64,000 nt of DNA from Bacteroidota bacterium (lineage in GTDB: Bacteria; Bacteroidota; Bacteroidia; SXHM01), in the NCBI GenBank assembly GCA_947479755.1, contig CANKAM010000011.1:20488-84487 (forward strand), in the 5' to 3' direction. The notes under the pieces were generated by a model that had not been told where the DNA came from, did not search any database, and saw nothing but the letters and a program-made list of their open reading frames with translations. Of the stretch, positions 1 to 19,238 are shown piece by piece. The translations under genes were made by a program, and so were the position numbers. Every line of letters starts with the position of its first letter. Position 1 is the stretch's first letter.

Positions 1-1
1 A

Positions 2-685
2 ACCTATCGCGAAATTCCGTTTGATATTGTTGACGATGTTGTTTTAGTTGATGATGCCAGTCCTGATAACACAATAGAAGTTGGAAAGCAACTCGGAATT
101 AAACACATCATCCGCCATGAGAAAAACAAAGGTTATGGCGGCAACCAGAAATCCTGCTATGATAAAGCACTTGAACTGAATGCAGACATTGTAATCATGT
201 TGCATCCCGATTACCAATACACACCAACACTAATTCCGGTGATGGCACATATTATTGCGTCAGACCTTTATCCTGTTGTTCTTGGTTCTCGTATCCTTGG
301 AAAGGGAGCGCTGAAAGGCGGAATGCCGATGTATAAGTATATCTTCAATCGCTGCCTCACACTTACTCAAAACATTTTGATGGGCCAGAAATTGAGTGAA
401 TACCACACCGGCTACCGCGCCTTTTCAAAAGAAGTTTTGAAAGGAATTAATTACCATGCCAACAGCGATGATTTCGTGTTCGACAATCAAATGCTGGCAC
501 AGATATTCTATGCTGATTTTGAAATAGCTGAAGTTACCTGCCCAACAAAATATTTTGAAGAAGCTTCGTCAATCAATTTTAAACGCAGCAGCATTTACGG
601 GTTTGGAGTGCTATGGACTTCCTTACAATATTTTTTTGCTAAACTTGGAGTTGCAAAGCCCAAAATATTTTCCCAAGCTAAATAA
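2..685 (+). CDS. Glycosyltransferase family 2 (polyprenyl-phosphate sugar synthase, DPM1/ArnC-like). 5' partial; the frame is open from the window edge.
   Basis: Translation from pos 2 reads TYREIPFDIVDDVVLVDDASPDNT...GYGGNQKSCY...ADIVIMLHPDYQYTP, the classic GT2 DxD/DDxSxDxT N-terminal region. The ORF track only shows the part from the first internal Met at 197. Confidence 0.7.
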   Translation, partial: TYREIPFDIVDDVVLVDDASPDNTIEVGKQLGIKHIIRHEKNKGYGGNQKSCYDKALELNADIVIMLHPDYQYTPTLIPVMAHIIASDLYPVVLGSRILGKGALKGGMPMYKYIFNRCLTLTQNILMGQKLSEYHTGYRAFSKEVLKGINYHANSDDFVFDNQMLAQIFYADFEIAEVTCPTKYFEEASSINFKRSSIYGFGVLWTSLQYFFAKLGVAKPKIFSQAK

Positions 686-691
686 AATTGC

Positions 692-2329
692 ATGAAACGC
701 ATAAGCATTGACTATTATTTTATTGGTCTGCTTGGTGTTATTGCTGCTGTTATAGCTTTTAAATTCCCTCATCTTTCATTACCTTATTTCTGGGACGAAG
801 CCTGGGTGTATGCACCGGCAGTTCTTGAAATGCATAAAAGTGGACTAAGCCTTTTGCCCGATGCTATTCCGCCTGAATTGTCAAGAGGACATCCATTATT
901 ATTTCATTTTCTTGCTGCCGGTTGGGTAAAAATTTTCGGAACAAGCTTTTTTGCTGTTCACAGCTTTGCATTAACTGTTTCGGTTGCTTTATTAGTTGCT
1001 GTCTATTTTTTCTGTAAAGAATTCTTTTCGCCATTGGTTGGACTGCTATCTGCTCTGATGCTGGCTGTTCAGCCACTATTTCTTGCACAAAGCTCCTTTC
1101 TGCTTCCCGAAGTTATGATGGCGTTGTGGACGGTTCTTGTGCTTTATTATTACCTGAAAGAAAAATGGATTTTATTTATTGTTTTTGCATCACTGATGCT
1201 GCTGACCAAAGAAAGTGGCATTGTATTGTTGGGCACAATTGGCTTATGGACATTATTTGAAAATGTGTTTCTGAAAAAGGAACCATTATTCAAACCAGAA
1301 GCACTTAAAACCTATGTATTGATTGCATCTCCGCTAATGGTTGCAGGAGTTTATTTTATAATCCAAAAGCTGCAATACGGTTGGTTTCTATATCCTGAGC
1401 ACATTGGAATGATGACGTTTGGCTGGACAATATTCCACAAGAAACTTCTGGATGTCTATGGTTTTCTTTTGCAGGGACAAGGGCGTTATTTACTTTTTAT
1501 CTCCTTCTTTTTTTGTGTTTCATTTTTCTGGAAATCACTTTCATGGATAGAGAAAATATTCATCCCTTTTGCATATCTGGCTGTAACTTACATATTGTTT
1601 AATCTATGGGGTGCAGATGATAAATTATCAATTGTACTCATCTTGATAATTTTTGCAAGACTATTTCAAACACTATTTATTAAAATTTACACTGAAGATA
1701 TTTTAACGGGAAGGGTGCTATCCATATCAGCGCTCTTTGTTTTTCTCTATTTTATTTTCACTCAATTAAACTTTCTTTCGCTTCGCTATTTACTCCTTAT
1801 AGTTCCAGTTATTATCCTAATTATATTTGGGTTCATTTATAGAATTCTTAAGGACAAGAAATGGTTATTTATTCTCGTTGCAGTGCTTTCAATAGCCAAT
1901 TGCTTACGCCAGATTCATAAATATGAAAATGTCGGAGATTATAACTTAAGTTATATTGACGCTATAAAAACTCAGCAGCAATTGGTAAACTATTGCGAAG
2001 AAAATAAATTACATGAAAATAAAATATTTGCAAGTTTTATTCTGAATAATTCTTTGAGTAATCCCATAGCCGGTTTTTTATCTGCTTCTAAATCATTTAC
2101 AGAACTTACCGATACATTAACTTCTGATGTAGAATACTGTTTATTTACGAATATCGATTTACAGGAAGAAAATGATTCTCTTTTAAATGTTATTAAACTG
2201 GAAAAGGTAAAAAGTTTTGAAACCAATAAGGTATGGATTGATGTTTATAAGTTTCATGGTTTTATAAATGATAGCATCGGCAAAGGGACTAATGCTAATC
2301 TGATAAAAAGAAAACTGAAGAAGATTTAG
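692..2329 (+). CDS. Polytopic membrane glycosyltransferase of the GT-C superfamily (ArnT/PMT/GT39-like)
   Basis: 545 aa with at least 10 predicted TM helices. N-terminal FWDEAW...RGHPLLF pattern parallels the DE...PPL motifs of ArnT/PMT-type GT-C enzymes. Sits directly after the GT2 gene with a 6-nt gap. Confidence 0.5.
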   Translation: MKRISIDYYFIGLLGVIAAVIAFKFPHLSLPYFWDEAWVYAPAVLEMHKSGLSLLPDAIPPELSRGHPLLFHFLAAGWVKIFGTSFFAVHSFALTVSVALLVAVYFFCKEFFSPLVGLLSALMLAVQPLFLAQSSFLLPEVMMALWTVLVLYYYLKEKWILFIVFASLMLLTKESGIVLLGTIGLWTLFENVFLKKEPLFKPEALKTYVLIASPLMVAGVYFIIQKLQYGWFLYPEHIGMMTFGWTIFHKKLLDVYGFLLQGQGRYLLFISFFFCVSFFWKSLSWIEKIFIPFAYLAVTYILFNLWGADDKLSIVLILIIFARLFQTLFIKIYTEDILTGRVLSISALFVFLYFIFTQLNFLSLRYLLLIVPVIILIIFGFIYRILKDKKWLFILVAVLSIANCLRQIHKYENVGDYNLSYIDAIKTQQQLVNYCEENKLHENKIFASFILNNSLSNPIAGFLSASKSFTELTDTLTSDVEYCLFTNIDLQEENDSLLNVIKLEKVKSFETNKVWIDVYKFHGFINDSIGKGTNANLIKRKLKKI

Positions 2330-3969
2330 TTTTTTCTCAGATAAAAAACAAAACCATTTTTTCTGTACAGAACCTCTAATTTAGGATTATAGTACAGGAT
2401 TTGTGTTTCCTTAGTATTCTTACTTACAAAATAGACAGGCTTATCAATCTCACCTTTCAATAGCCATTTAAGTTCAAGGCTTTTAAGATTATCCGGATTC
2501 TGCTTTTTGGTGTAGAAAAGATATGCGTAGCTCTTAAAGTCAAGTGTCTCAACGTAACAATCTTTATCTTTCAATGATTCATAAAAATCAATTGCTGCAC
2601 GTTGAGTATATTGTTCAGCCTTGGGGACAATTAATAATGAAGCAAACCATGTCGCCAGCATTGTAGATAAAAGCAGCAGGTAGAATCCTTTTTCAAATAA
2701 TCGCCACTTTACACAAAATACAAAAGCGATAACTCCGCTAAATAACAATATGCCGGTAAAAAATTCATAGCCTGTCCATTCTACGTGGGACATAATATTG
2801 GCGACTGCGAAATCATCTTTTATAATATTGAGTGCTATAATCTTTTCTTTGAAATTTTCAACAAACTGAAGGCTCGTAAGCACCAACGCAACCAAACCGC
2901 CAGTAGCGAGCAAAGCAAACGAATTACGTGTGCGCCATACAATTTCATCAGCAGAAACTTTCATTGCAACCCAGGCGGCAAGAAAGGTTAGAGGAAAATA
3001 GGTTAGTGATGAGTAATGGACTATTTTGGTTTTTACCATAGAGAATAAAACCAATACCACCCAGAACATAATCTGCATCCATACTTTAAAGTGGCGCTGC
3101 TCATCACTGTCACTTTCGCTGCGTTTAAACGACAGAAAAAACAAAATTGAAACCGGAAAACAACCAAATAACAAAACAATGAAATGATAGTAGAATGGCT
3201 GCCCATGTCCAGCTTCGCCTTCTGAATAAAGCCGAATTTGGTATTCAATAAATTCCTGAATCACTTCTCCTCTTCCTCTCAGAACTTCAATAATAAACCA
3301 TGAGAAACCTGTGAGAAGAACAAGTGCAGAAAAAAGAAAAAAGTGTTTCAAAGAAATAATATACCAAGAACCTTCTTTTGCCAAAAGAAAGAAAACAACA
3401 CACAAACCAAAAATCAGCAGCGCTACAGGACCTTTGGTAAGAATTCCTAGACCAATAAAAATAGCCGAAAGAATTAAGTTTTTAAATCTACTATCAGCAA
3501 CAGATGAGGTGTAAATAATTGCCTGATAAATTCCCAGAAAAATAAAAAGATTAAACCACGGATCAATAATTCCTGAGCGAAAATAAAACTGTGGTAACAG
3601 GGAGCCTGCGTATGCTAAAACCCAGAGCAAGCCAAAATTCCTATTGTATAATTTGCTTCCTATATTGAATAAAACCAGCAAAGTAGCTACTCCGCAGATA
3701 GCATTTGGAAAGCGGGCAGCAAATTCATTTACTCCGAATACTTTCATACTTACAACCTGCATCCAGAGAAACAAAGGTGGCTTTTCCCAGAAAGGCTGGA
3801 AGTTGATTTGTACGCGAGAATAATCGCCTGTGAGAATCATTTCTCTGGCAGCTTCTGCAAAATTTATTTCGTCCCAGTCAAAGAGATGAACACTTCCGAG
3901 AAACGGGAGAAACAGCAGCAGCGCAGCTAAAGCTATAATTACATTCCATTGAAGTGATGTTAGCTTCAT
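2326..3969 (-). CDS. ArnT-like GT39/GT83 family glycosyltransferase (undecaprenyl-phosphate-sugar dependent)
   Basis: N-terminus HLFDWDEINFAEAAREMILTGDY...FWEKPPLFLWMQ is the canonical ArnT/PMT signature. Multi-TM protein. Its stop overlaps the stop of the convergent 692..2329 gene. Confidence 0.75.
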   Translation of the reverse strand: MKLTSLQWNVIIALAALLLFLPFLGSVHLFDWDEINFAEAAREMILTGDYSRVQINFQPFWEKPPLFLWMQVVSMKVFGVNEFAARFPNAICGVATLLVLFNIGSKLYNRNFGLLWVLAYAGSLLPQFYFRSGIIDPWFNLFIFLGIYQAIIYTSSVADSRFKNLILSAIFIGLGILTKGPVALLIFGLCVVFFLLAKEGSWYIISLKHFFLFSALVLLTGFSWFIIEVLRGRGEVIQEFIEYQIRLYSEGEAGHGQPFYYHFIVLLFGCFPVSILFFLSFKRSESDSDEQRHFKVWMQIMFWVVLVLFSMVKTKIVHYSSLTYFPLTFLAAWVAMKVSADEIVWRTRNSFALLATGGLVALVLTSLQFVENFKEKIIALNIIKDDFAVANIMSHVEWTGYEFFTGILLFSGVIAFVFCVKWRLFEKGFYLLLLSTMLATWFASLLIVPKAEQYTQRAAIDFYESLKDKDCYVETLDFKSYAYLFYTKKQNPDNLKSLELKWLLKGEIDKPVYFVSKNTKETQILYYNPKLEVLYRKNGFVFYLRKN

Positions 3970-4628
3970 GGTTTATTATTTTTAAATAACGCCTTTTCTA
4001 AACCTTGATTTTGCACATTTTTTTGAAACAGATAATATACAAGCAACGCAAACAAAACACCAATCAGTGAACCAATAAATACATCGTCAAGAAAATGCTG
4101 ACTTAAATAAATCCGTGAAAAGCCTATGAGCGCTGCAGTAATTAAAAAAAGAAAACATGTATTCTTATTTTTTGCCATCAAAGCAAAGCAGGTAAAAACA
4201 CAAAAAGCTGTTGCCGTGTGTCCTGATGGCATGCTATTTTGCAGATAATTTTCAACTCCCGGAACAAGTCGCAATTCATAAATATTTTCAAAATATTTTT
4301 TAGGGCGAAGCGAAGCATCAAACACCTGTGTTTTCAGAATAAAAGTCAGTATTCCGGAAAACAGATTACTGAGCAATAAAATTAAAACAAAGCGATACTT
4401 AATGAAGAGTAAAATCAAGGCATACACAACCAGCATTCTTCCATCACCCAAATAAGTCAGGTATTTAAAAAATACATCAGCAAAAGGGTGATTTCTTTGA
4501 TTAATGGCAATGTGCAAACCTTCCTTATCAAAAAGCAGCAAAGCAAATGCACAGAAAAATAAAAAAGTTAAATACGGCAGAAAGAATGCCTTGTTGGCAG
4601 AAACGATTTTTAAAATATCGCGCAACAT
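3966..4628 (-). CDS. PAP2-family phosphatase (lipid phosphate or undecaprenyl-PP phosphatase type, LpxE/LpxF/PgpB-like)
   Basis: PAP2 motifs KxxxxxxRP-like (LRPKKYF), PSGH (MPSGHTATAF), and SRxxxxxHxxxD (SRIYLSQHFLDDV). Membrane protein. 4-nt overlap with the ArnT-like gene. Confidence 0.75.
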   Translation of the reverse strand: MLRDILKIVSANKAFFLPYLTFLFFCAFALLLFDKEGLHIAINQRNHPFADVFFKYLTYLGDGRMLVVYALILLFIKYRFVLILLLSNLFSGILTFILKTQVFDASLRPKKYFENIYELRLVPGVENYLQNSMPSGHTATAFCVFTCFALMAKNKNTCFLFLITAALIGFSRIYLSQHFLDDVFIGSLIGVLFALLVYYLFQKNVQNQGLEKALFKNNKP

Positions 4629-4642
4629 AAAAAGCGAAAAGC

Positions 4643-5476
4643 TTATGAACCCAAAATGTGCATTAATTCATGCACCTGACTATCCCACAAGAGTTGCGAT
4701 TCGTTTTCATCACCTTTCTCCACATAATCGGTAACAATAAGGGCAACCTCATTCGTAATTCCGTCAATTTTTATGCGAAATTCAAAAAAGCAATCTTTAG
4801 GTTGGGTAAGCCAACGGAAACGAACAAATTCATTATCCTCTTTTTCAATCAGAACAGCAGATTCTTCTGAACTATCCCATTTGAATGTGAACAGATTATC
4901 CATTGAATCAACATAATCTGCAAACCATGCAGAAAGCCCGCTGGCATTACTGACACTGCTGAAAAGTACACCTACAGATGAGCGTGTATAATATTCAAAC
5001 TGAACTTTTGTCCAACCGGGAACAATAGGATCAGGCTTAACTTCCGGAACTACTTTTTTAACCGGAGCAGCAAGTTTCTTCTTTACTACAGCAACCTGTT
5101 TTTTAGGTTCTGCAACCTTTTCAGGTGCTGCTGCAACCTGCTTTTTTGCGGGTGCAACAACCTTTTTAGTCGGAGCAGCAACTACCTTTTTCTTAGCAAC
5201 TGTAGCTTTTTTAACTGGTTTTGCAACTATTTTTTTCTTAGCAACTGCAACTTTCTTCGCTTGTTTAGCAACTACCTTTTTCTTAGGCTTAGGCTTAGCC
5301 ACTTTTTTAGCTGGCTTCGCAACCACCTTTTTCTTTGCAGGTGCTACTTTTTTCTTAGCTGCAGGAGCAACTTTCTTTTTCTGCGCTGGCAGTTTTTTCT
5401 TGCTTGCTACAACCTTTTTCTTTGCAGGTTTCACAGCTTTTTTCTTTGTAACTGCCGATGTCTTTTTCTTTTTCAT
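4643..5476 (-). CDS. Lys/Ala-rich histone-H1-like repeat protein with a C-terminal globular domain of unknown family, about 135 aa
   Basis: About 140-aa N-terminal region of KKKVVA/AKKKVAP repeats, encoded by tandem DNA repeats at 5040-5470. The ORF-track start at 5485 is a TTG; the first ATG is at 5476. C-terminal part (PGWTKVQFEYY...HELMHILGS) is non-repetitive. Confidence 0.6.
   Translation of the reverse strand: MKKKKTSAVTKKKAVKPAKKKVVASKKKLPAQKKKVAPAAKKKVAPAKKKVVAKPAKKVAKPKPKKKVVAKQAKKVAVAKKKIVAKPVKKATVAKKKVVAAPTKKVVAPAKKQVAAAPEKVAEPKKQVAVVKKKLAAPVKKVVPEVKPDPIVPGWTKVQFEYYTRSSVGVLFSSVSNASGLSAWFADYVDSMDNLFTFKWDSSEESAVLIEKEDNEFVRFRWLTQPKDCFFEFRIKIDGITNEVALIVTDYVEKGDENESQLLWDSQVHELMHILGS
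5040..5470. repeat. In-frame tandem DNA repeats (about 21-27 bp units) encoding the K/A-rich repeat region of the 4643..5476 protein
   Basis: Visible recurrence of gcaac(t/c)ttttt(c/t)ttagc(t/a)g / cttttt(t/c)gc(a/g)gg motifs, which also keep the opposite-strand frame open (shadow ORF 5261..5563). Confidence 0.7.
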
Positions 5477-5542
5477 CAGGCGCAAGGTATAAAAATATCT
5501 TTTGCTACAAAAAAAGAGGTTGTTTATTTGTTTTCATTGCTG

Positions 5543-5550
5543 TATGTTTG
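5543..5550 (+). promoter_or_regulatory. Candidate Bacteroidota sigma-A -7 box (TAnnTTTG) for the tRNA gene
   Basis: TATGTTTG ends 19 nt before the tRNA 5' end. Same tttgcaccc context as the candidate box upstream of def. Confidence 0.3.
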
Positions 5551-5569
5551 CACCCCTTTTTGAAAATAT

Positions 5570-5643
5570 GGCGAGGTAGCTCAGGTGGTTAGAGCGCAGG
5601 ATTCATAACCCTGAGGTCGGGGGTTCAATTCCCCCTCTCGCTA
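5570..5643 (+). tRNA. tRNA-Met (anticodon CAT; could alternatively be tRNA-Ile2/lysidine)
   Basis: Cloverleaf folds by hand: acceptor GGCGAGG/TCTCGCT (two G-U), D arm GCTC/GAGC, anticodon stem CAGGA/CCCTG with one 31-39 mismatch, loop TTCATAA (CAT), T arm GGGGG-TTCAATT-CCCCC, discriminator A. No encoded CCA. Confidence 0.85.
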
Positions 5644-5673
5644 CTACAAATTCTCTAGGTTTTTGTTGTAGCC

Positions 5674-6330
5674 ATGCTTATTCAAGCCCAAAACATTCAT
5701 AAATCTTACGGTGCACTAAACGTGCTGAAAGGTGTTAGTATTGAAATTCAACGCAAAGAAGTGGTAAGTATTGTTGGCCCTTCCGGTGCAGGTAAATCAA
5801 CGCTGCTGCATATTATTGGCACATTGGATAAACCTGATTCTGGTTTAGTGAGGGTAAATGATATGGACATCAACAGTCTTAAAGACAAACAACTTTCTGC
5901 GTTTAGAAACAAACATATTGGTTTTGTTTTTCAGTTTCATCACCTGTTGCCTGAGTTTACTGCATTGGAAAATATCTGCATTCCTGCATTTATAGCTAAA
6001 ACAAGCAAAGAAGAAGCGGAGAAAAAAGCGATGGAGCTCCTTTCCTTTCTTGGTCTGGAACAACGCAAAAACCATAAACCTTCTGAACTTTCGGGTGGCG
6101 AACAACAGCGTATTGCTGTTGCCCGTGCTTTAATTAACAATCCTGATGTGGTGCTGGCTGATGAGCCTTCAGGTAATCTAGATTCCGCTTCTGCAAAAGA
6201 ATTGCATCAACTGTTCTTTACGCTACGCGAAAAATTCGGGCAAACCTTTGTGATTGTAACACACAATAATGAACTGGCAGGTATGACTGACCGTGTGCTT
6301 ACGATGCGTGATGGTATGATTGTTTCTTAA
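5674..6330 (+). CDS. ABC transporter ATP-binding protein (LolD/MacB-type)
   Basis: Walker [13 protein letters not shown] signature [15 protein letters not shown], Walker [13 protein letters not shown]. 218 aa, typical LolD size. Confidence 0.85.
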
Positions 6331-6333
6331 CGA

Positions 6334-7134
6334 TTAAGGTTTTGTAGGAGGCTGCTGCCCGCCATACATTTTCATCAAGTCTTCCATCATTTTCTTCTGC
6401 TCTTCTGGAGTCATATTTTTCAGATCTTGCATGCTTTTAGGCATGTTGCTCAAATCCATGGTAGCTGCTTTTTTATAGCCTGCCGGAATTTCAAACATAG
6501 ATGATGGAACAGTTTTTTTCTCGGCCTTAACAAGGTCCATTTGCATACCGCCCGACATGCCGGCTTCACTCATTTTCATGCGCACAGGAAAACCATCTGC
6601 GCCTTTCTCTGCCATTTTTGCAAATAAATTATCATCGTCAAAGTATTTGCTTCCTTTCATGCCTGAAAAGCCTGGGAAGCACGGAACATCTTTGCTGGTC
6701 CACCATTCGTTACGCATCTTTCCGGAGTTTTTAAACTTGGCAATAACATGGGTGCAACTGTATCCGTTAACGGTTTCTTTGCCTACCACTGTAACCTCAA
6801 ATGGTTCTGTGCTCTTTTTTTCCTGTGGTTCATATTCTTCGTAGCTTATTTCGGTGTAGGTTTTATTGGAGGGAGTTAGTTTAGTGATGACGTTGGGCTT
6901 ATCCTGACGGGTAATGGTAATGGTATTCATTGCTCCTGTGGGCAATCCGGCAATATTCATTTCCATTTCGCTGCGGCTGTTACCATCCTGATGCCAGGTT
7001 TTATTATTGCCGCTCATGGATTCTTCTGCTTTACCCGAAGATATTTTGTATTCAACATAAACGCCTTGTGCATTGGAAGTGATAATTGACAATGAACAAT
7101 TGGCAATGAATATAAGTGTAAGTAGTTTTTTCAT
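6334..7134 (-). CDS. Secreted protein or lipoprotein of unknown function (possibly DUF4412-like)
   Basis: N-terminal signal peptide MKKLLTLIFIANCSLSIITSNAQG. Met/Lys-rich C-terminus. No catalytic motif recognised. Confidence 0.5.
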   Translation of the reverse strand: MKKLLTLIFIANCSLSIITSNAQGVYVEYKISSGKAEESMSGNNKTWHQDGNSRSEMEMNIAGLPTGAMNTITITRQDKPNVITKLTPSNKTYTEISYEEYEPQEKKSTEPFEVTVVGKETVNGYSCTHVIAKFKNSGKMRNEWWTSKDVPCFPGFSGMKGSKYFDDDNLFAKMAEKGADGFPVRMKMSEAGMSGGMQMDLVKAEKKTVPSSMFEIPAGYKKAATMDLSNMPKSMQDLKNMTPEEQKKMMEDLMKMYGGQQPPTKP

Positions 7135-7205
7135 TTGGTATTTTTTTTCAAAAGTAATAAAGAGTTTAATTCACTACTCTTCCAATATGTAAAGGATGAC
7201 AAATA

Positions 7206-7937
7206 TCAGTAACGCCTTCCGCTGCCATACTTATCATACACCTGATAACGCGATTTGATATACATTGCAAAATCGTATTGCGATGAGTGTTTAATCATAT
7301 CATCAGAAACGGCACAGAAATCAATGAAATCATCAAAGGCTTCGTCATGCAGACTGATGATGTCGGCTTCTACATATTTGGTAAGCAGCTCTTTTAAGAG
7401 CGAACGCATACGGTCTTCATTTTCCAGTTCTGCCACTAATTTGCGTGAGCGTTCTCTGCGGCTGAACATCTGGTACAGCGCAGTAATCGGACTTTCAAAT
7501 GCATTTACTCCTTCCAGCATGGTTTCATCTTTTTTAACGCCCAGCTTTTCAATATCGCGTTGTATTTCGTTCAGGTCGCGGGGACTAAGAATGGTAACGC
7601 TTCGCAGCTCTACCGAAACCTTTTTCAGGTAAAGCGTTACGTTGTATTCAGACTGTGGCGTTGAATCGTGCAAGCAAAATTTAATGGTATTGTACCCAAC
7701 TGAGTTTACCATAATGGTATCGCTGATGCGGGCATAAATAACAAACTCTCCGTTTTGATTTCCAAATACACCCTCGGCACTGGTTTTATTTACCACCAGC
7801 AGATTATAAAACTGAAGCGAAGGATTGTCTGCGTCTATTACCTTACCCGAAATTTTCAGAGGCTTATAAGCATTGAACTGCGCAAAGGCAGCAATACCCG
7901 GAAACAGAAGCAGTAACAGTATTAAACTCTTTCTCAT
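7206..7937 (-). CDS. Secreted hypothetical protein with an N-terminal carboxypeptidase-regulatory-like beta-sandwich
   Basis: Signal peptide MRKSLILLLLLFPGIAAFAQ, then the KISGKVID...VVNKTSAEGVFGNQNGEF pattern typical of CarboxypepD_reg-like domains. Confidence 0.45.
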   Translation of the reverse strand: MRKSLILLLLLFPGIAAFAQFNAYKPLKISGKVIDADNPSLQFYNLLVVNKTSAEGVFGNQNGEFVIYARISDTIMVNSVGYNTIKFCLHDSTPQSEYNVTLYLKKVSVELRSVTILSPRDLNEIQRDIEKLGVKKDETMLEGVNAFESPITALYQMFSRRERSRKLVAELENEDRMRSLLKELLTKYVEADIISLHDEAFDDFIDFCAVSDDMIKHSSQYDFAMYIKSRYQVYDKYGSGRRY

Positions 7938-8059
7938 TTATTAATGCTGTAAATGTGGGATTATTATCAGGATGCGGAAAGGGATTAACAAAAATTAACC
8001 CAACATTTTTACCTCAGAGGTCGCAGAGTAGGCGCAGCGAACTCAGAGAGAAACGAAAC

Positions 8060-16700: not shown

Positions 16701-17086
16701 TGAAAAATAGCGGCTTACTTATTATTGGTTTAGTTCTCCTCTTTTCTTCTTGTACAAAAGAAGAGGGTGTTGGAGGAACATCAACCATTTCAGGAAAAGT
16801 ATATGCAAAAGAATTTTCTTCAGCCGGTAATCTCTTGGCTGAATATTATGCGCAGGAAGAGCGTGTGTATATTATTTATGGTGATGGCACAACGTATGAC
16901 AATGATTTCCGGACCAGCTACGATGGCTCTTACAAGTTTCAATACCTGAACAAAGGAACTTATAAAGTATTCTGTTATTCCAATTGCGACACTTGTGCAT
17001 CAGGGAGTATAGCCGTGATTAAGGAAGTTGAAATAACTTCCAATAACTCAACAGTAGAAGTAGAAGATATCGTTATCAGGAAATGA
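16700..17086 (+). CDS. Small lipoprotein, unknown function
   Basis: Lipobox LLFSSC. Start overlaps the upstream stop (TAATG). Its stop overlaps the downstream start (ATGA). Confidence 0.45.
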   Translation: MKNSGLLIIGLVLLFSSCTKEEGVGGTSTISGKVYAKEFSSAGNLLAEYYAQEERVYIIYGDGTTYDNDFRTSYDGSYKFQYLNKGTYKVFCYSNCDTCASGSIAVIKEVEITSNNSTVEVEDIVIRK

Positions 17087-17877
17087 GCGAGAACACCACG
17101 GCAAACCTTATAGTTCCTGCTTTACAAACCTTTCGCCCTATTACATTGAGCGAGATGGATAACGTGCAGTTGCTTAACCGCATGGATACAAAGTTTGTTT
17201 TTCCGGTTGACAAGCTCTTGCCGTTTCTTGAAAAAATAAAAGACGGATACCGCCTGCTGGAAACCAATCCGCTGCGTTACTCAGACTACAACTCACTTTA
17301 TTATGACACACCGGATTCAAAACTATACTTCACGCATCACCGTGGAAAGTCAGGGCGCTATAAAATTCGTTTCCGCAGTTACAACGACACAAAATTATTT
17401 TTCCTGGAAATAAAACACAAGAACAACAAAGGACGAACCGATAAGTCAAGAAAAAGAAAAACCGAAATAGAACAAACACTTTCTGCCGAATCGATTGAAT
17501 ACATCAACCGCAAAACAAATCTTGATGCTACACAATTAGAAGCAAAACTGCAGGTTGAATTTTCACGCCTCACCTTTGTAAACAACGAAGAAAACGAACG
17601 CGCTACTATTGATTTCAATTTGCGTTTCAGTCATAACGGAAAGCAGGTTGGCCTTCCCGGCATAGTGGTAGCAGAAATAAAACAAAGTAAATTTTCGGTA
17701 AAGAGCGGAGCAATATCAGCGCTCAGAGAATTAAAGATACGCGAAGACAACATGAGTAAATACTGCATTGGCACAGCGTTGATATATTCAGATATCAAAC
17801 AAAATAATTTCAAACAAAAAATATACACCATAAATAAACTTCAGAACCATGGAATTTTTAGGAACCAAGCTGCTTAA
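17083..17877 (+). CDS. VTC-domain protein (polyphosphate-polymerase-like catalytic domain, CYTH/triphosphate-tunnel fold)
   Basis: Basic tunnel-like pattern RYSDYNSLYYDTPDSKLYFTHHRGKSGRYKIRFRSYNDTKLFFLEIKHKNNKGRTDKSRKRK, resembling the Vtc4 catalytic core (R/K ladder around FLEIK). No TM segments. ATGA overlap with the upstream gene. Confidence 0.65.
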   Translation: MSENTTANLIVPALQTFRPITLSEMDNVQLLNRMDTKFVFPVDKLLPFLEKIKDGYRLLETNPLRYSDYNSLYYDTPDSKLYFTHHRGKSGRYKIRFRSYNDTKLFFLEIKHKNNKGRTDKSRKRKTEIEQTLSAESIEYINRKTNLDATQLEAKLQVEFSRLTFVNNEENERATIDFNLRFSHNGKQVGLPGIVVAEIKQSKFSVKSGAISALRELKIREDNMSKYCIGTALIYSDIKQNNFKQKIYTINKLQNHGIFRNQAA

Positions 17878-18499
17878 CGACAACGATTTTTTAGAATTGC
17901 TTGTCAGATTTTTCTTAAATATTACCGTGATGTTGGTAATAGTGCGTCTTCTCTATTATCCTAATCAACGCAGAAAAGACTATTTGTTTACCTACGTTAT
18001 TTTTAACGTGCTTATTTTCCTCATCTGCTTTTTGCTTAGCAGTGTAAAACTGGAACTTGGTTTTGCGTTTGGTTTATTTGCTGTGTTCGGCATTTTGCGT
18101 TACCGCACAGAAGCTGTGCCTATTAAGGAAATGACCTATCTGTTTATAGTAATAGGCATTGCCGTAATCAATTCACTGAGTAATAAAAAAATAAGCTGGG
18201 CCGAACTTGCCTTTACCAATGCTGCAATCCTGGGTGCCACTTATGCACTTGAAAAAATGTGGCTGCTGCGCCACGAAACACAGAAATTGGTGATCTATGA
18301 TAATATTGAACTTATAAAACCCGAACACAGAGCGAAATTGATTGAAGACCTGAATAAACGCACAGGACTTACCATTACCCGCACCCGCCTGGAGAAAATT
18401 GACTTTCTGCGTGATGTTGCTTTTCTCTACATCTACTATTTTGAAGATAAAACTCCGGGCTATAATAACCCGGCTGACGACAGCGATGATGACGATTAG
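17849..18499 (+). CDS. DUF4956-like integral membrane protein
   Basis: 4-5 TM helices (VMLVIVRLLYYP, FTYVIFNVLIFLICFLL, GFAFGLFAVFGIL, YLFIVIGIAVINSL) and an acidic DDSDDDD C-terminus. Overlaps the VTC gene by 29 nt. Family assignment is from memory of this gene neighbourhood and is unverified. Confidence 0.5.
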   Translation: MEFLGTKLLNDNDFLELLVRFFLNITVMLVIVRLLYYPNQRRKDYLFTYVIFNVLIFLICFLLSSVKLELGFAFGLFAVFGILRYRTEAVPIKEMTYLFIVIGIAVINSLSNKKISWAELAFTNAAILGATYALEKMWLLRHETQKLVIYDNIELIKPEHRAKLIEDLNKRTGLTITRTRLEKIDFLRDVAFLYIYYFEDKTPGYNNPADDSDDDD

Positions 18500-19232
18500 A
18501 AACAGTTCTTTCATCTTTATTTTTCTGTTGGGTGCGCTTACTTCTTTTGCACAGACAAACGATTTTCAAACCTGGGCATGGGTTACATTGAAAACCGATA
18601 TTTCAAAAAAGTTCAGCGCAAGTGTTCAGTGTCAGTTACGGATGAAGGACAATTCAACGCGACCCGGCACCGTTTTTTTTGAGCCCGACCTTGGATTTAA
18701 AGTAAATAAATACCTGAAATTAGGTGTAGGATATCGTTTCTCTATGCGTTACAGTTCAGACAACATTAACACCACTGCGCACCGCTATAACATTGATGCC
18801 GAAGGCAGAAAAAAATTCGGCAAACTAACACTCAAGCTACGCACCCGTTTTCAGAAAGGTTTTACTGATTTAGTTTACAACGAAAATCGCGAACCCTACT
18901 CCTACCCTGCTTACAACCGCAACAAACTATCAATGGAATATGAAGTAAACAAACGCTTCAGTCCTTATGCAGAGTTTGAATTATTTCTACCGCTTAATAA
19001 CCCGCGCCAGCGCAATTTTGACCGCTACCGTGCAACCATCGGCTCTTCATTTGATTTAAAAAACCGCAACTCAATTGATTGTTTTTTTCGTGTGCAACAG
19101 GAGTTGAACACTGCCAATCCCAAAACAGATTTCATCATTGGTCTTGGCTATGCTTATGATGTAAAACTGAGTAAGAAGAAAAAGAAAGACAAGGATAAGA
19201 AAGAGGAAAAGCCTGATTCTAAAAAGAAATAA
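18486..19232 (+). CDS. Predicted outer-membrane beta-barrel protein (DUF2490-like), K/D-rich C-terminal tail
   Basis: Signal peptide MMTIRNSSFIFIFLLGALTSFAQ from the ATG at 18486. The ORF-track upstream extension overlaps DUF4956. Alternating hydrophobic beta-strand pattern (LGVGYRFSMRY, FDLKNRNSIDCFFRV, FIIGLGYAYDV). Confidence 0.45.
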   Translation: MMTIRNSSFIFIFLLGALTSFAQTNDFQTWAWVTLKTDISKKFSASVQCQLRMKDNSTRPGTVFFEPDLGFKVNKYLKLGVGYRFSMRYSSDNINTTAHRYNIDAEGRKKFGKLTLKLRTRFQKGFTDLVYNENREPYSYPAYNRNKLSMEYEVNKRFSPYAEFELFLPLNNPRQRNFDRYRATIGSSFDLKNRNSIDCFFRVQQELNTANPKTDFIIGLGYAYDVKLSKKKKKDKDKKEEKPDSKKK

Positions 19233-19238
19233 GATAGG

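What the first reader, a model, noticed from the sequence alone, without database searches (positions are those of the whole stretch)
1..5485. Envelope glycoconjugate-remodelling cluster: GT2 synthase, two distinct ArnT/GT39-like GT-C transferases (convergent), PAP2 phosphatase, co-transcribed with a histone-H1-like K/A-repeat protein
Established knowledge: the combination of GT2 polyprenyl-phosphate-sugar synthase, GT-C (ArnT/FlmK-type) transferase and PAP2 phosphatase is the logic used for lipid A dephosphorylation and glycosylation. Examples are Francisella FlmF/FlmK/LpxE-F and ArnC/ArnT. In Bacteroidota the same logic may serve protein O-glycosylation.

Seen: the 2326..3969 product has the canonical ArnT N-terminal motif. 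The 692..2329 product has a divergent version. PAP2 motifs are intact. The minus-strand operon order is K/A-rich protein, then PAP2, then ArnT-like, with a 4-nt overlap.

Inference: two GT-C enzymes with different substrates are encoded back-to-back. The K/A-repeat protein leading the operon is unexpected.
Basis: partly seen in the sequence, partly recalled or inferred. Interest (0 to 1): 0.6.

Follow-up and report, generated by a model that had tools for sequence, protein, structure and literature searches.

The report
Lipid A sugar-remodelling genes with lysine-rich partner
An uncultured freshwater Bacteroidota genome carries a gene cluster that most likely strips a phosphate from the outer-membrane lipid A and replaces it with a sugar. 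Its first gene encodes an unstudied lipid-binding-type protein with a long lysine-rich tail, and this gene arrangement recurs widely in the phylum.

Summary
All five genes are real and at the stated coordinates.
- **Plus strand:** a polyprenyl-phosphate-sugar-synthase-like GT2 (1-685, cut by the window edge), then a divergent GT-C transferase (692-2329).
- **Minus strand:** a lysine-rich protein (4643-5476), then a PAP2 phosphatase (3966-4628), then an ArnT-family GT-C (2326-3969).

The logic matches known lipid A phosphatase plus glycosyltransferase systems such as LpxE/LpxF with RgtD/F/E. That part is a new member of a known kind, and both the sugar and the acceptor are unproven.

The "histone-H1-like" protein is really a START_2 (PF19569) domain. 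It is preceded by a disordered 156-residue tail of net charge +52.

This protein, the PAP2 and the ArnT-like gene form a trio that recurs across Bacteroidia in different flanks. The GT2 and the second GT-C come and go.
- In 80 metagenomic START_2 loci, every long-tailed form with enough sequence had PAP2 next (6 of 6) and the ArnT-like gene after it (5 of 5).
- None of 49 short forms had the ArnT-like gene. Short forms sit beside LptF/G or the same PAP2 subfamily.

No paper on the family's function turned up. What the START_2 protein does is speculation. Interest is moderate.

The parts
1..685 (+). 3' part of a GT2 glycosyltransferase gene (residues 23-249 of 249). It resembles polyprenyl-phosphate hexose synthases and has no predicted membrane helices.
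   Evidence: PF00535 at 55.7 bits. The full-length gene is seen in L001 4864..5613. Nearest NCBIfam models are AglJ, Dol-P-hexose transferase, PpgS, PgfS and ArnC, all far below cut-off. Best PDB match is P. furiosus Dol-P-Man synthase 5MLZ, 9e-12. It has no C-terminal TM helices; the one hydrophobic stretch flagged (residues 98-116) lies inside the GT2 domain. Identity is 95-97% in relatives 73-99% identical in START_2, 74-87% in L022, L025 and L026 and 77% in L032.
692..2329 (+). Divergent GT-C glycosyltransferase (GTC_A, 545 aa), 6 nt downstream of the GT2 gene.
   Evidence: PMT_2 at 41.6 bits, above the 26.1 cut-off. AlphaFold model has pLDDT 90.6 and pTM 0.91. Foldseek hits are ALG12/ALG9, PglB, STT3, ArnT and Pmt4, all at TM about 0.45-0.5. 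No PDB sequence hit even with a profile. It evolves fast: 63% identity in L005, absent in L004. Relatives at 42-45% identity are paired with an 87%-identical GT2 in polysaccharide loci.
2326..3969 (-). ArnT-family GT-C glycosyltransferase (GTC_B, 547 aa). It converges on GTC_A with overlapping stop codons.
   Evidence: PMT_2 at 71.2 bits. ArnT equivalog PRK13279 scores 97.6 bits over residues 8-378, against a cut-off of 567. ArnT 5EZM is the only PDB hit: 1e-14 with the single sequence and 1.4e-20 with a profile. D33/E34, E62-K63-P64-P65 and K179 are invariant in 28 homologues. The family is very large: all 8000 scored candidates passed E 1e-10, and those listed are named Bacteroidia/Bacteroidota at 50-56% identity.
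3966..4628 (-). PAP2 integral-membrane lipid phosphatase (220 aa), with a 4-nt overlap onto the GTC_B start.
   Evidence: PF01569 at 88.5 bits. Best PDB match is Aquifex LpxE 6EBU, 2e-16. Motifs are K-X8-RP, PSGH and SRX5HX3D. All NCBIfam equivalogs (SepP, BcrC-type, PgpB, LpxE) score below cut-off.
4643..5008 (-). START_2 (SRPBCC / helix-grip) domain of the first gene of the minus-strand operon, residues 157-277 plus the stop codon. It is acidic, pI 4.4.
   Evidence: PF19569 at 106.6 bits. PDB 2LIO (B. fragilis BfR322, uncharacterised) at 2e-17. AlphaFold pLDDT is above 90 for residues 155-277. Foldseek finds 2LIO, bacterial Aha1-like proteins and PYL receptors.
5009..5476 (-). Lysine/alanine/valine/proline-rich N-terminal tail of the same protein, residues 1-156. 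Net charge +52, predicted disordered, no signal peptide or membrane helix.
   Evidence: Composition is K 36%, A 20%, V 19%, P 11%, pI 11.0. pLDDT is about 50-60 with no secondary structure. No Pfam or NCBIfam match. The reading frame is kept in single tblastn alignments through the tail in L003, L004 and L005 despite 54-72% identity. It is the only long K-rich stretch in the 64-kb window.
5177..5353 (-). Degenerate tandem repeat inside the tail-coding region (45-nt = 15-codon unit, 3.8 copies).
   Evidence: Tandem Repeats Finder: period 45, 74% matches, score 174.
5477..5569 (-). Intergenic region upstream of the K-rich START_2 gene. Presumed promoter of the minus-strand operon; not demonstrated.
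   Evidence: 93 nt between the ATG and the tRNA gene. A TATTTTTA element starts 21 nt before the ATG; no full TAnnTTTG match. No Rfam cis-regulatory element.
5570..5644 (+). tRNA-Met (CAT) gene marking the boundary of the cluster. It is a conserved neighbour of the K-rich START_2 gene.
   Evidence: ARAGORN and Rfam. It is also adjacent in L005, L014, L023 and L024, in either orientation.

Best explanation
The region holds two adjoining modules of a periplasmic-face envelope-lipid remodelling pathway. The most likely target is the lipid A end of lipopolysaccharide.

**Module 1 (minus strand, one probable operon):** the K-rich START_2 protein, then the PAP2 phosphatase, then the ArnT-family GT-C (GTC_B).

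**Module 2 (plus strand):** a GT2 without membrane helices, then a divergent GT-C (GTC_A).

**Proposed steps**
1. On the cytoplasmic face, the GT2 loads a sugar from a nucleotide sugar onto undecaprenyl phosphate. The sugar is unknown; a hexose such as mannose or a hexuronic acid is the best guess.
2. The lipid-linked sugar is flipped by a flippase that is not encoded here.
3. The PAP2 enzyme removes a lipid A phosphate on the periplasmic face.
4. GTC_B transfers the sugar to lipid A, either onto the freed hydroxyl or onto a remaining phosphate.
5. GTC_A uses the same donor on a second acceptor. This could be a second sugar on lipid A or, judging from its relatives, an O-antigen-like polysaccharide.

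The START_2 protein is a cytoplasmic accessory. It has a hydrophobic-ligand-binding fold joined to a polycationic disordered tail that would stick to anionic membrane surfaces or other polyanions. It may hold or present a lipid (polyprenyl phosphate or a lipid A precursor) to the pathway, for instance to the GT2 that lacks membrane helices.

**Shown:** the gene families, catalytic motifs, gene order and conservation.
**Inferred:** every substrate, the operon structure and the role of the START_2 protein.
For: **Family assignments.**. [quoted passage not shown] GTC_B's only solved relative is ArnT, with the catalytic Asp and the EKPP motif invariant. The GT2's closest relatives are polyprenyl/dolichyl-P sugar synthases.

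**Gene spacing.** Spacings are tight: a 4-nt overlap, a 14-nt gap and a 6-nt gap.

**Conserved trio.** START_2-PAP2-GTC_B recurs in different flanks in L012/L013, L016, L023 and L024, and in L028, L029, L031, L032 and L034.

**GT2 stays near GTC_B without GTC_A.** This is seen in L004, L022, L024 and L032.

**Independent link of START_2 to LPS.** In 60 short-form loci with enough flank, the next gene is LptF/LptG in 21 and the same K-X8-RP PAP2 subfamily in 16.

**The tail tracks the ArnT-like gene.** It follows 5 of 5 long forms and 0 of 49 short forms.

**Known precedents.**
- LpxE/LpxF with RgtD/RgtF and RgtE; rgtE, lpxE and rgtF have consecutive locus tags (c19730, c19740, c19750) in Oligotropha (PMC7663294).
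- Within the phylum, Cellulophaga lipid A carries one or two mannoses at 4' in place of phosphate, and the paper names no enzymes or genes for this (PMC11065906).
- B. fragilis lipid A is reported to be modified by a hexuronic acid, probably through its 1-phosphate.
Against: - No substrate is demonstrated.
- All equivalog-level models (ArnT, LpxE, ArnC, Und-PP phosphatases) score far below their cut-offs.
- PAP2 enzymes of this type can also dephosphorylate undecaprenyl diphosphate and PGP (PMC6581854). The phosphatase could therefore serve carrier-lipid recycling instead.
- No flippase and no nucleotide-sugar pathway genes lie in the cluster.
- GTC_A relatives lie in polysaccharide loci.
- The START_2 gene is absent next to PAP2-GTC_B in L022. 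A short, tail-less form heads the operon in L016. Neither the protein's adjacency nor its tail is therefore obligatory.
- The START_2-LptF/G adjacency sits in a broadly conserved Flavobacteriales synteny block and may be historical rather than functional.
- The 5/5 versus 0/49 contrast is not corrected for shared ancestry.
Confidence: 0.5

Rival explanations
1. The cluster decorates a surface glycan (O-antigen, capsule or another glycolipid), not lipid A. The GT2 makes Und-P-sugar and both GT-Cs add side-branch sugars in the periplasm, as in Gtr-type O-antigen glucosylation or YfhO/CsbB-type systems. The PAP2 merely recycles undecaprenyl diphosphate or phosphate.
For: GTC_A relatives paired with an 87%-identical GT2 lie among GT2s, a DegT aminotransferase, methyltransferases and MBOAT/AlgX genes. 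GTC_A's best NCBIfam hit is a 'cell surface glycopolymer formation' family. The PAP2's best NCBIfam hits are Und-PP phosphatases (SepP 35.9 bits, PRK11837 28.5 bits) rather than LpxE (17.8 bits). Aquifex LpxE itself also acts on C55-PP.
Against: GTC_B's only solved relative is the lipid A transferase ArnT. The PAP2's best solved relative is LpxE. The PAP2 is translationally coupled to GTC_B rather than sitting in a polysaccharide locus. The START_2 partner is otherwise linked to LptF/G. The trio occurs far from any polysaccharide genes.
Confidence: 0.25
2. One or both GT-C enzymes are protein O-glycosyl (mannosyl) transferases acting on periplasmic or surface proteins, as GT39 PMTs do in Actinobacteria and eukaryotes.
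For: Both hit Pfam PMT_2, and some GTC_B homologues also hit PF02366 PMT. The GT2 resembles Dol-P-Man synthase. Bacteroidota have a general O-glycosylation system (papers listed).
Against: The GTC_B profile finds ArnT but no Pmt1, Pmt2 or Pmt4 chain in the PDB. No MIR domain or PF02366 hit appears in either window protein. GTC_A is no closer to Pmt4 than to ALG9/12, PglB or ArnT. A coupled lipid phosphatase has no role in protein mannosylation.
Confidence: 0.07
3. The lysine-rich START_2 protein is a nucleoid- or RNA-associated basic protein. Its position before PAP2 is a genomic accident with no role in envelope remodelling.
For: The tail has the K/A/P composition of H1-like bacterial proteins and a net charge of +52. 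It would bind DNA or RNA non-specifically. The gene lies next to a tRNA gene in five lineages. A weak terminator-like hairpin lies at its 3' end. START_2 is not adjacent in L022.
Against: The gene order START_2-PAP2-GTC_B is kept at 39-46% PAP2 identity in at least four different flanking contexts, with 6 of 6 and 5 of 5 long forms linked. Short forms are linked to the same PAP2 subfamily or to LptF/G. The tail matches no histone-like family. The globular part is a ligand-binding fold, not a DNA-binding one.
Confidence: 0.12

Closest known systems
LpxE/LpxF lipid A phosphatases with RgtD/RgtF GT-C galacturonosyltransferases and the RgtE GT2 bactoprenyl-P-GalA synthase (Rhizobiales; homologues reported in Aquifex and Caulobacter)
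   Same: Same three enzyme classes and same logic: a PAP2 removes a lipid A phosphate, a GT2 makes the polyprenyl-P-sugar, and an ArnT-like GT-C puts the sugar on lipid A. In Oligotropha, rgtE, lpxE and rgtF have consecutive locus tags (PMC7663294). The window's PAP2 is closest to Aquifex LpxE among solved structures.
   Different: No orthology is shown; sequences of Rgt proteins were not available to compare. The GT2 here lacks membrane helices. There is a second, very divergent GT-C. The operon is headed by a START_2 protein with a polybasic tail, which is not part of the Rgt system as described in that paper. The sugar is unknown.
Arn pathway (ArnC GT2 + ArnT GT-C; Ara4N on lipid A phosphates) and the Francisella FlmF/FlmK and Bordetella Lgm variants
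   Same: GTC_B is homologous to ArnT over its membrane domain. It keeps the catalytic Asp, the EKPP motif and the TKG lysine. The donor comes from a GT2.
   Different: GTC_B scores 97.6 bits against a 567-bit equivalog cut-off. ArnC is only the seventh-best match of the GT2, at 17.4 bits. No ArnA/B/D-type sugar-modifying or deacetylase genes, and no ArnE/F flippase, are nearby. Here a phosphatase is coupled to the transferase, which suggests glycosylation of a dephosphorylated position rather than of the phosphate.
Helicobacter/Capnocytophaga LpxE-EptA operons (recalled from the literature, not checked here)
   Same: A lipid A phosphatase gene sits immediately upstream of the transferase that then modifies the same position, as PAP2 and GTC_B do here with a 4-nt overlap.
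   Different: The transferase there adds phosphoethanolamine, is not a GT-C, and needs no polyprenyl-P-sugar donor.
PF19569 START_2 / PDB 2LIO (B. fragilis BfR322), within the SRPBCC (START/Bet v 1/AHSA1) superfamily
   Same: The C-terminal domain is a clear member: 106.6 bits, 2e-17 to 2LIO, and a confident helix-grip model.
   Different: 2LIO is the short, tail-less form with no known function. The window protein adds a 156-residue polylysine-type tail and sits in a PAP2/ArnT-like operon.

Membership tests
ArnT family (lipid A 4-amino-4-deoxy-L-arabinosyltransferase; GT-C, Pfam PMT_2) - for GTC_B 2326..3969 | Homology to ArnT over the membrane domain, with the first-loop Asp motif and the E-K-P-P motif (metal and Und-P phosphate contacts in ArnT; residue roles recalled from the 5EZM/5F15 work) | tested here: met
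   5EZM at E 1e-14 (single sequence) and 1.4e-20 (profile), and it is the only PDB hit. D33/E34, E62-K63-P64-P65 and K179 are invariant in 28 homologues.
ArnT family - for GTC_B | Score above the curated equivalog cut-off (NF009784, 567 bits) | tested here: not met
   97.6 bits over residues 8-378. It is a homologue, not an ArnT equivalog.
ArnT family - for GTC_B | Genetic linkage to Ara4N synthesis genes (arnA, arnB, arnC, arnD, arnE/F) | tested here: not met
   The neighbours are PAP2, START_2, a DPM1-like GT2, a second GT-C, pntAB and tRNA-Met. ArnC is only a 17-bit match of the GT2.
ArnT family - for GTC_B | Transfers a sugar from Und-P-sugar to lipid A | not testable with these tools
   Needs lipid A mass spectrometry or an in vitro assay.
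Lipid A phosphatases LpxE/LpxF (PAP2 lipid phosphatase/phosphotransferase family) - for 3966..4628 | Tripartite motif KX6RP - PSGH - SRX5HX3D | tested here: inconclusive
   PSGH and SRX5HX3D are intact. Motif 1 is K-X8-RP, a two-residue insertion relative to Aquifex LpxE. The insertion is conserved in 37 of 38 START_2-linked PAP2 genes.
Lipid A phosphatases LpxE/LpxF - for 3966..4628 | Closest characterised relative is a lipid A phosphatase, and the score is above the LpxE equivalog cut-off | tested here: inconclusive
   The best solved relative is Aquifex LpxE 6EBU (2e-16). NCBIfam LpxE scores 17.8 bits against a 177 cut-off, and Und-PP phosphatase models score slightly higher.
Lipid A phosphatases LpxE/LpxF - for 3966..4628 | Removes the 1- or 4'-phosphate of lipid A | not testable with these tools
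   Needs expression in a Kdo2-lipid A strain plus mass spectrometry, as in PMC6581854.
Polyprenyl-phosphate sugar synthases (GT2; DPM1 / GtrB / ArnC / PpgS type) - for 1..685 | GT2 catalytic domain whose nearest curated relatives are polyprenyl/dolichyl-P sugar synthases | tested here: met
   PF00535. AglJ 53.9, Dol-P-hexose transferase 51.1, PpgS 42.1, PgfS 26 and ArnC 17.4 bits. Dol-P-Man synthase 5MLZ at 9e-12. All are below equivalog cut-offs, so the sugar is undetermined.
Polyprenyl-phosphate sugar synthases - for 1..685 | C-terminal membrane helices, as in GtrB/ArnC and archaeal DPMS | tested here: not met
   The 249-aa full-length protein has no C-terminal hydrophobic helices. It resembles the DPM1/PpgS type that lacks membrane helices.
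Protein O-mannosyltransferases (GT39 PMT) - for both GT-Cs | PF02366 PMT domain, MIR domain, and closest relatives among Pmt enzymes | tested here: not met
   Only PMT_2 hits, with no PF02366 or MIR. The GTC_B profile finds no Pmt chain. The GTC_A model matches Pmt4 no better than ALG9/12, PglB or ArnT.
GT-C fold superfamily - for GTC_A 692..2329 | Multi-helix GT-C membrane fold with an acidic motif in the first periplasmic loop | tested here: met
   Model pLDDT 90.6, pTM 0.91. All 21 Foldseek hits at E <= 0.001 are GT-C enzymes. W34-D35-E36 is conserved (D35/E36 invariant, W34 in at least 90%). hhalign to the GTC_B family gives 85% probability, E 6e-6, over the first 200 residues.
START_2 (PF19569) - for 4643..5476 | Score above the Pfam gathering cut-off and a helix-grip fold | tested here: met
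   106.6 bits against a 23.6 cut-off. 2LIO at 2e-17. Confident model with SRPBCC hits.
Histone-H1-like / Hc1-type bacterial basic proteins - for the tail 5009..5476 | Sequence homology to a described histone-like family | tested here: not met
   No Pfam family reached significance even with the E-value limit set to 10; the only line was PE at E 1.3. No NCBIfam match. The resemblance is compositional only (K 36%, A 20%, P 11%).
Histone-H1-like / Hc1-type bacterial basic proteins - for the tail | Binds and compacts DNA | not testable with these tools
   Needs EMSA or localisation experiments.

The most novel reading that the evidence does not exclude
The lysine-rich START_2 proteins are a so-far unrecognised cytoplasmic component of lipopolysaccharide remodelling in Bacteroidota. 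In this reading, a lipid-binding START-type domain is tethered to the anionic inner leaflet by a polycationic disordered tail. It captures polyprenyl phosphate (or a lipid A intermediate) and hands it to the GT2 synthase that lacks membrane helices. Lipid A glycosylation by the PAP2/ArnT-like pair would then depend on it. The tail-less paralogues next to LptF/LptG would play a related role in LPS export.
Probability: 0.2. Interest if true: 0.75.

Novelty: new variant of a known kind. Interest (0 to 1): 0.5.

Why it matters
Bacteroidota make lipid A forms that lack a phosphate and sometimes carry sugars. Examples are mannose at 4' in Cellulophaga and a hexuronic acid in B. fragilis. These features shape how the immune system and cationic antimicrobials see the bacteria. 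The structural papers read here name no enzymes for these sugars.

This locus offers a concrete, widely conserved candidate gene set: a K-X8-RP PAP2, an ArnT-family GT-C and a highly conserved 249-aa GT2. It can be tested directly in cultivable relatives.

It also gives the uncharacterised START_2 family (PF19569, known from one structural-genomics entry) its first functional context. Two independent gene-neighbourhood links point to lipid A and LPS enzymes. It further identifies a large class of START_2 proteins with polylysine-type tails whose presence tracks the glycosylation arm. If the link is functional, it would be a rare case of a soluble START-type lipid-binding protein taking part in bacterial outer-membrane lipid biogenesis.

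Tried and rejected
**Literature**
- Searches combining ArnT/LpxE/LpxF with Bacteroidetes/Flavobacteri returned nothing on this gene set.
- A search for PF19569 found only a paper that lists the accession.
- A search for a Bacteroidota GT39 oligosaccharyltransferase gave no relevant hit.
- My recollection that Zunongwangia lipid A carries mannose was wrong according to PMC9470727. Cellulophaga is the correct example.

**Searches that found nothing or failed**
- The PDB sequence search for GTC_A found nothing, alone or as a profile. I therefore modelled it.
It was redone with six closer sequences.
- Rfam found no regulatory RNA in 1-8000 apart from the tRNA.
- The sigma-70 promoter scan was at chance level (17 found, 17.1 expected). 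It is not suited to Bacteroidota.
- No LptF/G homologue is in the window, so the LptF/G link could not be checked in this genome.

**Readings rejected**
- The K-rich ORF as an annotation artefact: the frame and composition are kept across divergent homologues.
- K-rich tails as a proteome-wide habit: this is the only long one in 64 kb.
- GTC_A as a recent duplicate of GTC_B: they share 26% identity over about 200 residues.

**Could not do**

Full report
**1. What is in the sequence**

The region holds five genes.
- **Plus strand.** A GT2 glycosyltransferase gene is cut by the window start (1..685; PF00535, 55.7 bits). Six nucleotides later comes a 545-aa multi-pass membrane protein (692..2329; PMT_2, 41.6 bits; here GTC_A).
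- **Minus strand.** A K/A-rich ORF (4643..5485 as listed), a PAP2 phosphatase (3966..4628; PF01569, 88.5 bits) and a 547-aa PMT_2 protein (2326..3969; 71.2 bits; here GTC_B).

PAP2 and GTC_B overlap by ATGA. GTC_A and GTC_B converge with overlapping stop codons (TAG at 2327-2329 on the plus strand, TAA at 2328-2326 on the minus strand). The K/A gene ends 14 nt before the PAP2 start.

The cluster has clear boundaries. On one side is a tRNA-Met gene (5570-5644). On the other, as seen in relatives, is the transhydrogenase operon pntAB (assigned from the ORF translations, not by a family search).

The organism is an uncultured freshwater Bacteroidota. Near-identical DNA occurs in lake MAGs with inconsistent labels. 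T9SS sorting domains elsewhere in the window fit that phylum.

**2. Corrections to the observation**

- The K/A gene most likely begins at the ATG at 5476, giving 277 aa. Its homologues begin MKKKK at the equivalent place.
- Its last 120 residues are a START_2 domain (PF19569, 106.6 bits). The closest solved structure is the uncharacterised B. fragilis protein 2LIO (2e-17).
- An AlphaFold model gives pLDDT above 90 for residues 155-277, a helix-grip fold. Residues 1-150 score about 50-60 with no secondary structure.
- Foldseek returns 2LIO, bacterial Aha1-like SRPBCC proteins and PYL receptors. This is a hydrophobic-ligand-binding fold with no specific functional lead.
- The tail is 36% K, 20% A, 19% V and 11% P, with net charge +52 and pI 11. 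The domain has pI 4.4. There is no signal peptide or membrane helix.
- The tail contains a degenerate 15-codon tandem repeat and matches no protein family. "Histone-H1-like" therefore describes composition only.
- PAP2 motif 1 is K-X8-RP rather than K-X6-RP. The other two motifs are canonical.

**3. The enzymes**

*GTC_B.*
- It aligns to ArnT of Cupriavidus (5EZM) over residues 7-362 (1e-14).
- A profile of 28 homologues finds ArnT alone in the PDB (1.4e-20). No Pmt, STT3/PglB or Emb chain appears.
- The ArnT catalytic Asp and the E-K-P-P motif align to invariant D33 and E62-K63-P64-P65. The roles of these residues in ArnT are from my memory of the 5EZM/5F15 paper.
- It is not an ArnT equivalog (97.6 bits against a 567 cut-off).
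- It belongs to a very large family. All 8000 scored candidates passed E 1e-10. The listed hits are named Bacteroidia or Bacteroidota and sit at 50-56% identity outside the closest lineage.

*GTC_A.*
- It is a different matter. It shares 26% identity with GTC_B over about 200 residues.
- The profile-profile match is limited to the first 200 residues, and RGHP replaces EKPP.
- It has no PDB sequence hit.
- Its confident model (pLDDT 90.6) is clearly GT-C. It is about equally far from ALG12/ALG9, PglB, STT3, ArnT and Pmt4.

*PAP2.* Its best solved relative is Aquifex LpxE (2e-16). That enzyme is a lipid A 1-phosphatase which also acts on C55-PP and PGP (PMC6581854).

*GT2.*
- It is 249 aa in full.
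- It has no C-terminal hydrophobic helices.
- Its nearest curated families are all polyprenyl- or dolichyl-phosphate sugar synthases, none near its cut-off.
- Its best solved relative is a Dol-P-Man synthase.
- The class is supported. The sugar is not determined.

**4. Comparative genomics**

*Close relatives.* The five-gene arrangement is intact in L001, L003 and L005. L004 lacks GTC_A, so its GT2 converges directly on GTC_B. Rates differ sharply. In L005 the identities are GT2 95%, GTC_B 83%, PAP2 79%, START domain 73% and GTC_A 63%.

*Further away.* The persistent unit is START_2, PAP2, GTC_B.
- L012/L013 have FloA and MPAB flanks and no GT2 nearby.
- L016 has a tail-less START_2 and both GT-Cs.
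- L023 and L024 have START_2 proteins of 371-372 aa with 248-residue K-rich tails, and GTC_B at 53-54% identity. In L024 the GT2 lies 5 kb away.
- L022 has PAP2, GTC_B and a convergent GT2, but no adjacent START_2.

*GTC_A relatives.* Those at 42-45% identity follow an 87%-identical GT2 inside loci full of GT2s, a DegT aminotransferase, methyltransferases and MBOAT/AlgX genes. One such locus (L026) is in the same MAG as L004. That genome therefore has two GT2 copies, one beside GTC_B and one beside a GTC_A-like gene.

I read this as follows. GT2 is the donor synthase. GTC_B is the conserved core transferase coupled to the phosphatase. GTC_A is an accessory transferase that uses the same donor on another acceptor.

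**5. The START_2 family**

An exhaustive HMMER search found 879 representatives (E <= 0.001).
- Of the best 150, 109 carry an N-terminal extension of at least 40 residues.
- Of those 109, 102 are at least 20% lysine, with a median net charge of +45.

The polybasic tail is thus the majority architecture among this protein's nearest relatives. It is not a peculiarity of this genome. It is also not a proteome-wide habit, since this is the only long K-rich stretch in the 64-kb window.

In 80 metagenomic START_2 loci the pattern is as follows.

| Form | Loci with enough flank | Next gene is PAP2 | Next gene is LptF/G | Neither | GTC_B after PAP2 |
|---|---|---|---|---|---|
| Long, K-rich (9 loci) | 6 | 6 | 0 | 0 | 5 of 5 |
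| Short, about 127 aa (71 loci) | 60 | 16 | 21 | 23 | 0 of 49 |

- "Enough flank" means at least 900 bp downstream. The GTC_B column uses only loci with at least 2.5 kb downstream.
- The Fisher test on the GTC_B contrast gives p = 3e-7, not corrected for shared ancestry.
- The "neither" loci show an Aminotran_4/DUF179/fmt synteny.
- The LptF/LptG assignment is firm (PF03739, 245-270 bits) and is seen again.
- All but one of the START_2-linked PAP2 genes share the K-X8-RP signature, so they are one subfamily.

Two independent neighbourhoods, LptF/G and a lipid phosphatase, tie START_2 to inner-membrane LPS steps. The tail appears where the glycosylation arm is present. L016 is an exception, a short form with PAP2 and two GT-Cs.

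**6. Mechanism proposed**

- Shown: families, motifs, order and conservation.
- Inferred: everything about substrates.

The best fit is the known scheme in which a PAP2 enzyme removes a lipid A phosphate on the periplasmic face and an ArnT-like GT-C then adds a sugar donated by a GT2-made polyprenyl-P-sugar.

The closest described system is LpxE/LpxF with RgtD/RgtF and RgtE. In Oligotropha the rgtE, lpxE and rgtF genes carry consecutive locus tags (PMC7663294).

The phylum offers chemical precedents whose papers name no responsible genes:
- one or two D-mannoses at 4' in place of phosphate in Cellulophaga (PMC11065906);
- a hexuronic acid on B. fragilis lipid A, probably through its 1-phosphate.

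A DPM1-like GT2, a phosphatase and one or two GT-Cs would fit the mannose case neatly, but I could not test that.

For the START_2 protein I can offer only a hypothesis. It may be a cytoplasmic lipid-binding adaptor held at the anionic inner leaflet by its tail, perhaps presenting polyprenyl phosphate to the GT2 that lacks membrane helices. From memory, DPM1 and mycobacterial Ppm1 likewise need membrane partners, and the START protein COQ10 binds an isoprenoid lipid.

**7. Rivals**

- **Glycan decoration with Und-PP recycling.** This is supported by GTC_A's relatives and by the PAP2's slightly better NCBIfam scores to Und-PP phosphatases. It is weakened by the ArnT and LpxE affinities, the coupling of PAP2 to GTC_B and the LptF/G link.
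- **Protein O-mannosylation.** This is weak. There is no PMT or MIR domain, no Pmt hit and no role for a phosphatase.
- **The K-rich protein as an unrelated nucleoid protein.** It is contradicted by the conserved trio in several flanks. It is not excluded, because the gene is missing next to PAP2-GTC_B in L022 and a weak terminator-like hairpin lies at its 3' end.

**8. Verdict**

The enzyme cluster is a new member of a known kind of lipid A remodelling system and, on its own, ordinary. The conserved polybasic START_2 protein at the head of the operon is real, widespread and unstudied, and makes the locus a new variant worth testing. Interest is 0.5.

Noticed in passing
window 5570-5644 (+); L005 7527-7601; L014 5861-5935; L023 3964-4038; L024 3961-4035: The same tRNA-Met(CAT) gene lies directly upstream of the K-rich START_2 gene in five lineages, including distant ones. 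The tRNA plus about 25 nt of its 5' flank is inverted between lineages: divergent in the window, L023 and L024, and co-directional in L005 and L014.
   Followed up: partly
L005 about 90-7420: In this relative, a roughly 7.4-kb insertion lies between the LolD remnant and the tRNA-Met gene, where the window has no insertion. It carries a tyrosine-recombinase-like ORF (6161-7417), a resolvase-like ORF (4738-5505) and small hypothetical genes. It looks like an integrated mobile element at the tRNA.
   Followed up: no
window 17083-21275 (+): Consecutive genes for a VTC-domain protein, a DUF2490 protein with a short K-rich patch, and a CotH-kinase protein with a proprotein-convertase P-domain and a T9SS C-terminal sorting domain. 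This is an unusual trio that might relate to polyphosphate or surface phosphorylation.
   Followed up: no
L025 8650-10089; L026 8690-10075 and 11678-13096: Multi-pass membrane proteins of 461-479 aa with no Pfam hit and a conserved acidic motif (DDY/RDD) near the N-terminus. They sit next to GT2 + GTC_A-like pairs in polysaccharide loci. They may be an unclassified GT-C-like family.
   Followed up: no
window 3966-4628 and 37 PAP2 genes in fetched loci: PAP2 genes linked to START_2 share a K-X8-RP variant of the first phosphatase motif (canonical K-X6-RP). Only L009 has the canonical spacing. This could serve as a signature for the subfamily.
   Followed up: partly
window 4658-4675 (-): A terminator-like hairpin (GTGCAT-GAATTA-ATGCAC) lies inside the last codons of the START_2 gene, followed by a T-rich 14-nt spacer before the PAP2 start. 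The stem coincides with the conserved peptide VHELMH, so it may be a by-product of coding, or a weak attenuator.
   Followed up: no
window 5674-7134; L014 4316-5782: A LolD-like ABC ATPase (TIGR02211, 279 bits, just below its cut-off) and a DUF4412 protein flank the tRNA side of the cluster. They are conserved there in relative L014.
   Followed up: no
L007 4285-4587; L008 4340-4657: A small protein whose N-terminus recalls ribosomal protein bTHX (from memory; no family search was run) carries a K/T/A-rich tail of about 70 residues in Flavobacteriales MAGs. This is another example of lysine-rich tails on small proteins in this phylum.
   Followed up: no
L001, L002, L006: Near-identical DNA is deposited under conflicting MAG names (Chitinophaga pinensis, Bacteroidia bacterium, Bacteriovoracia bacterium). 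This suggests mislabelled or contaminated bins.
   Followed up: no
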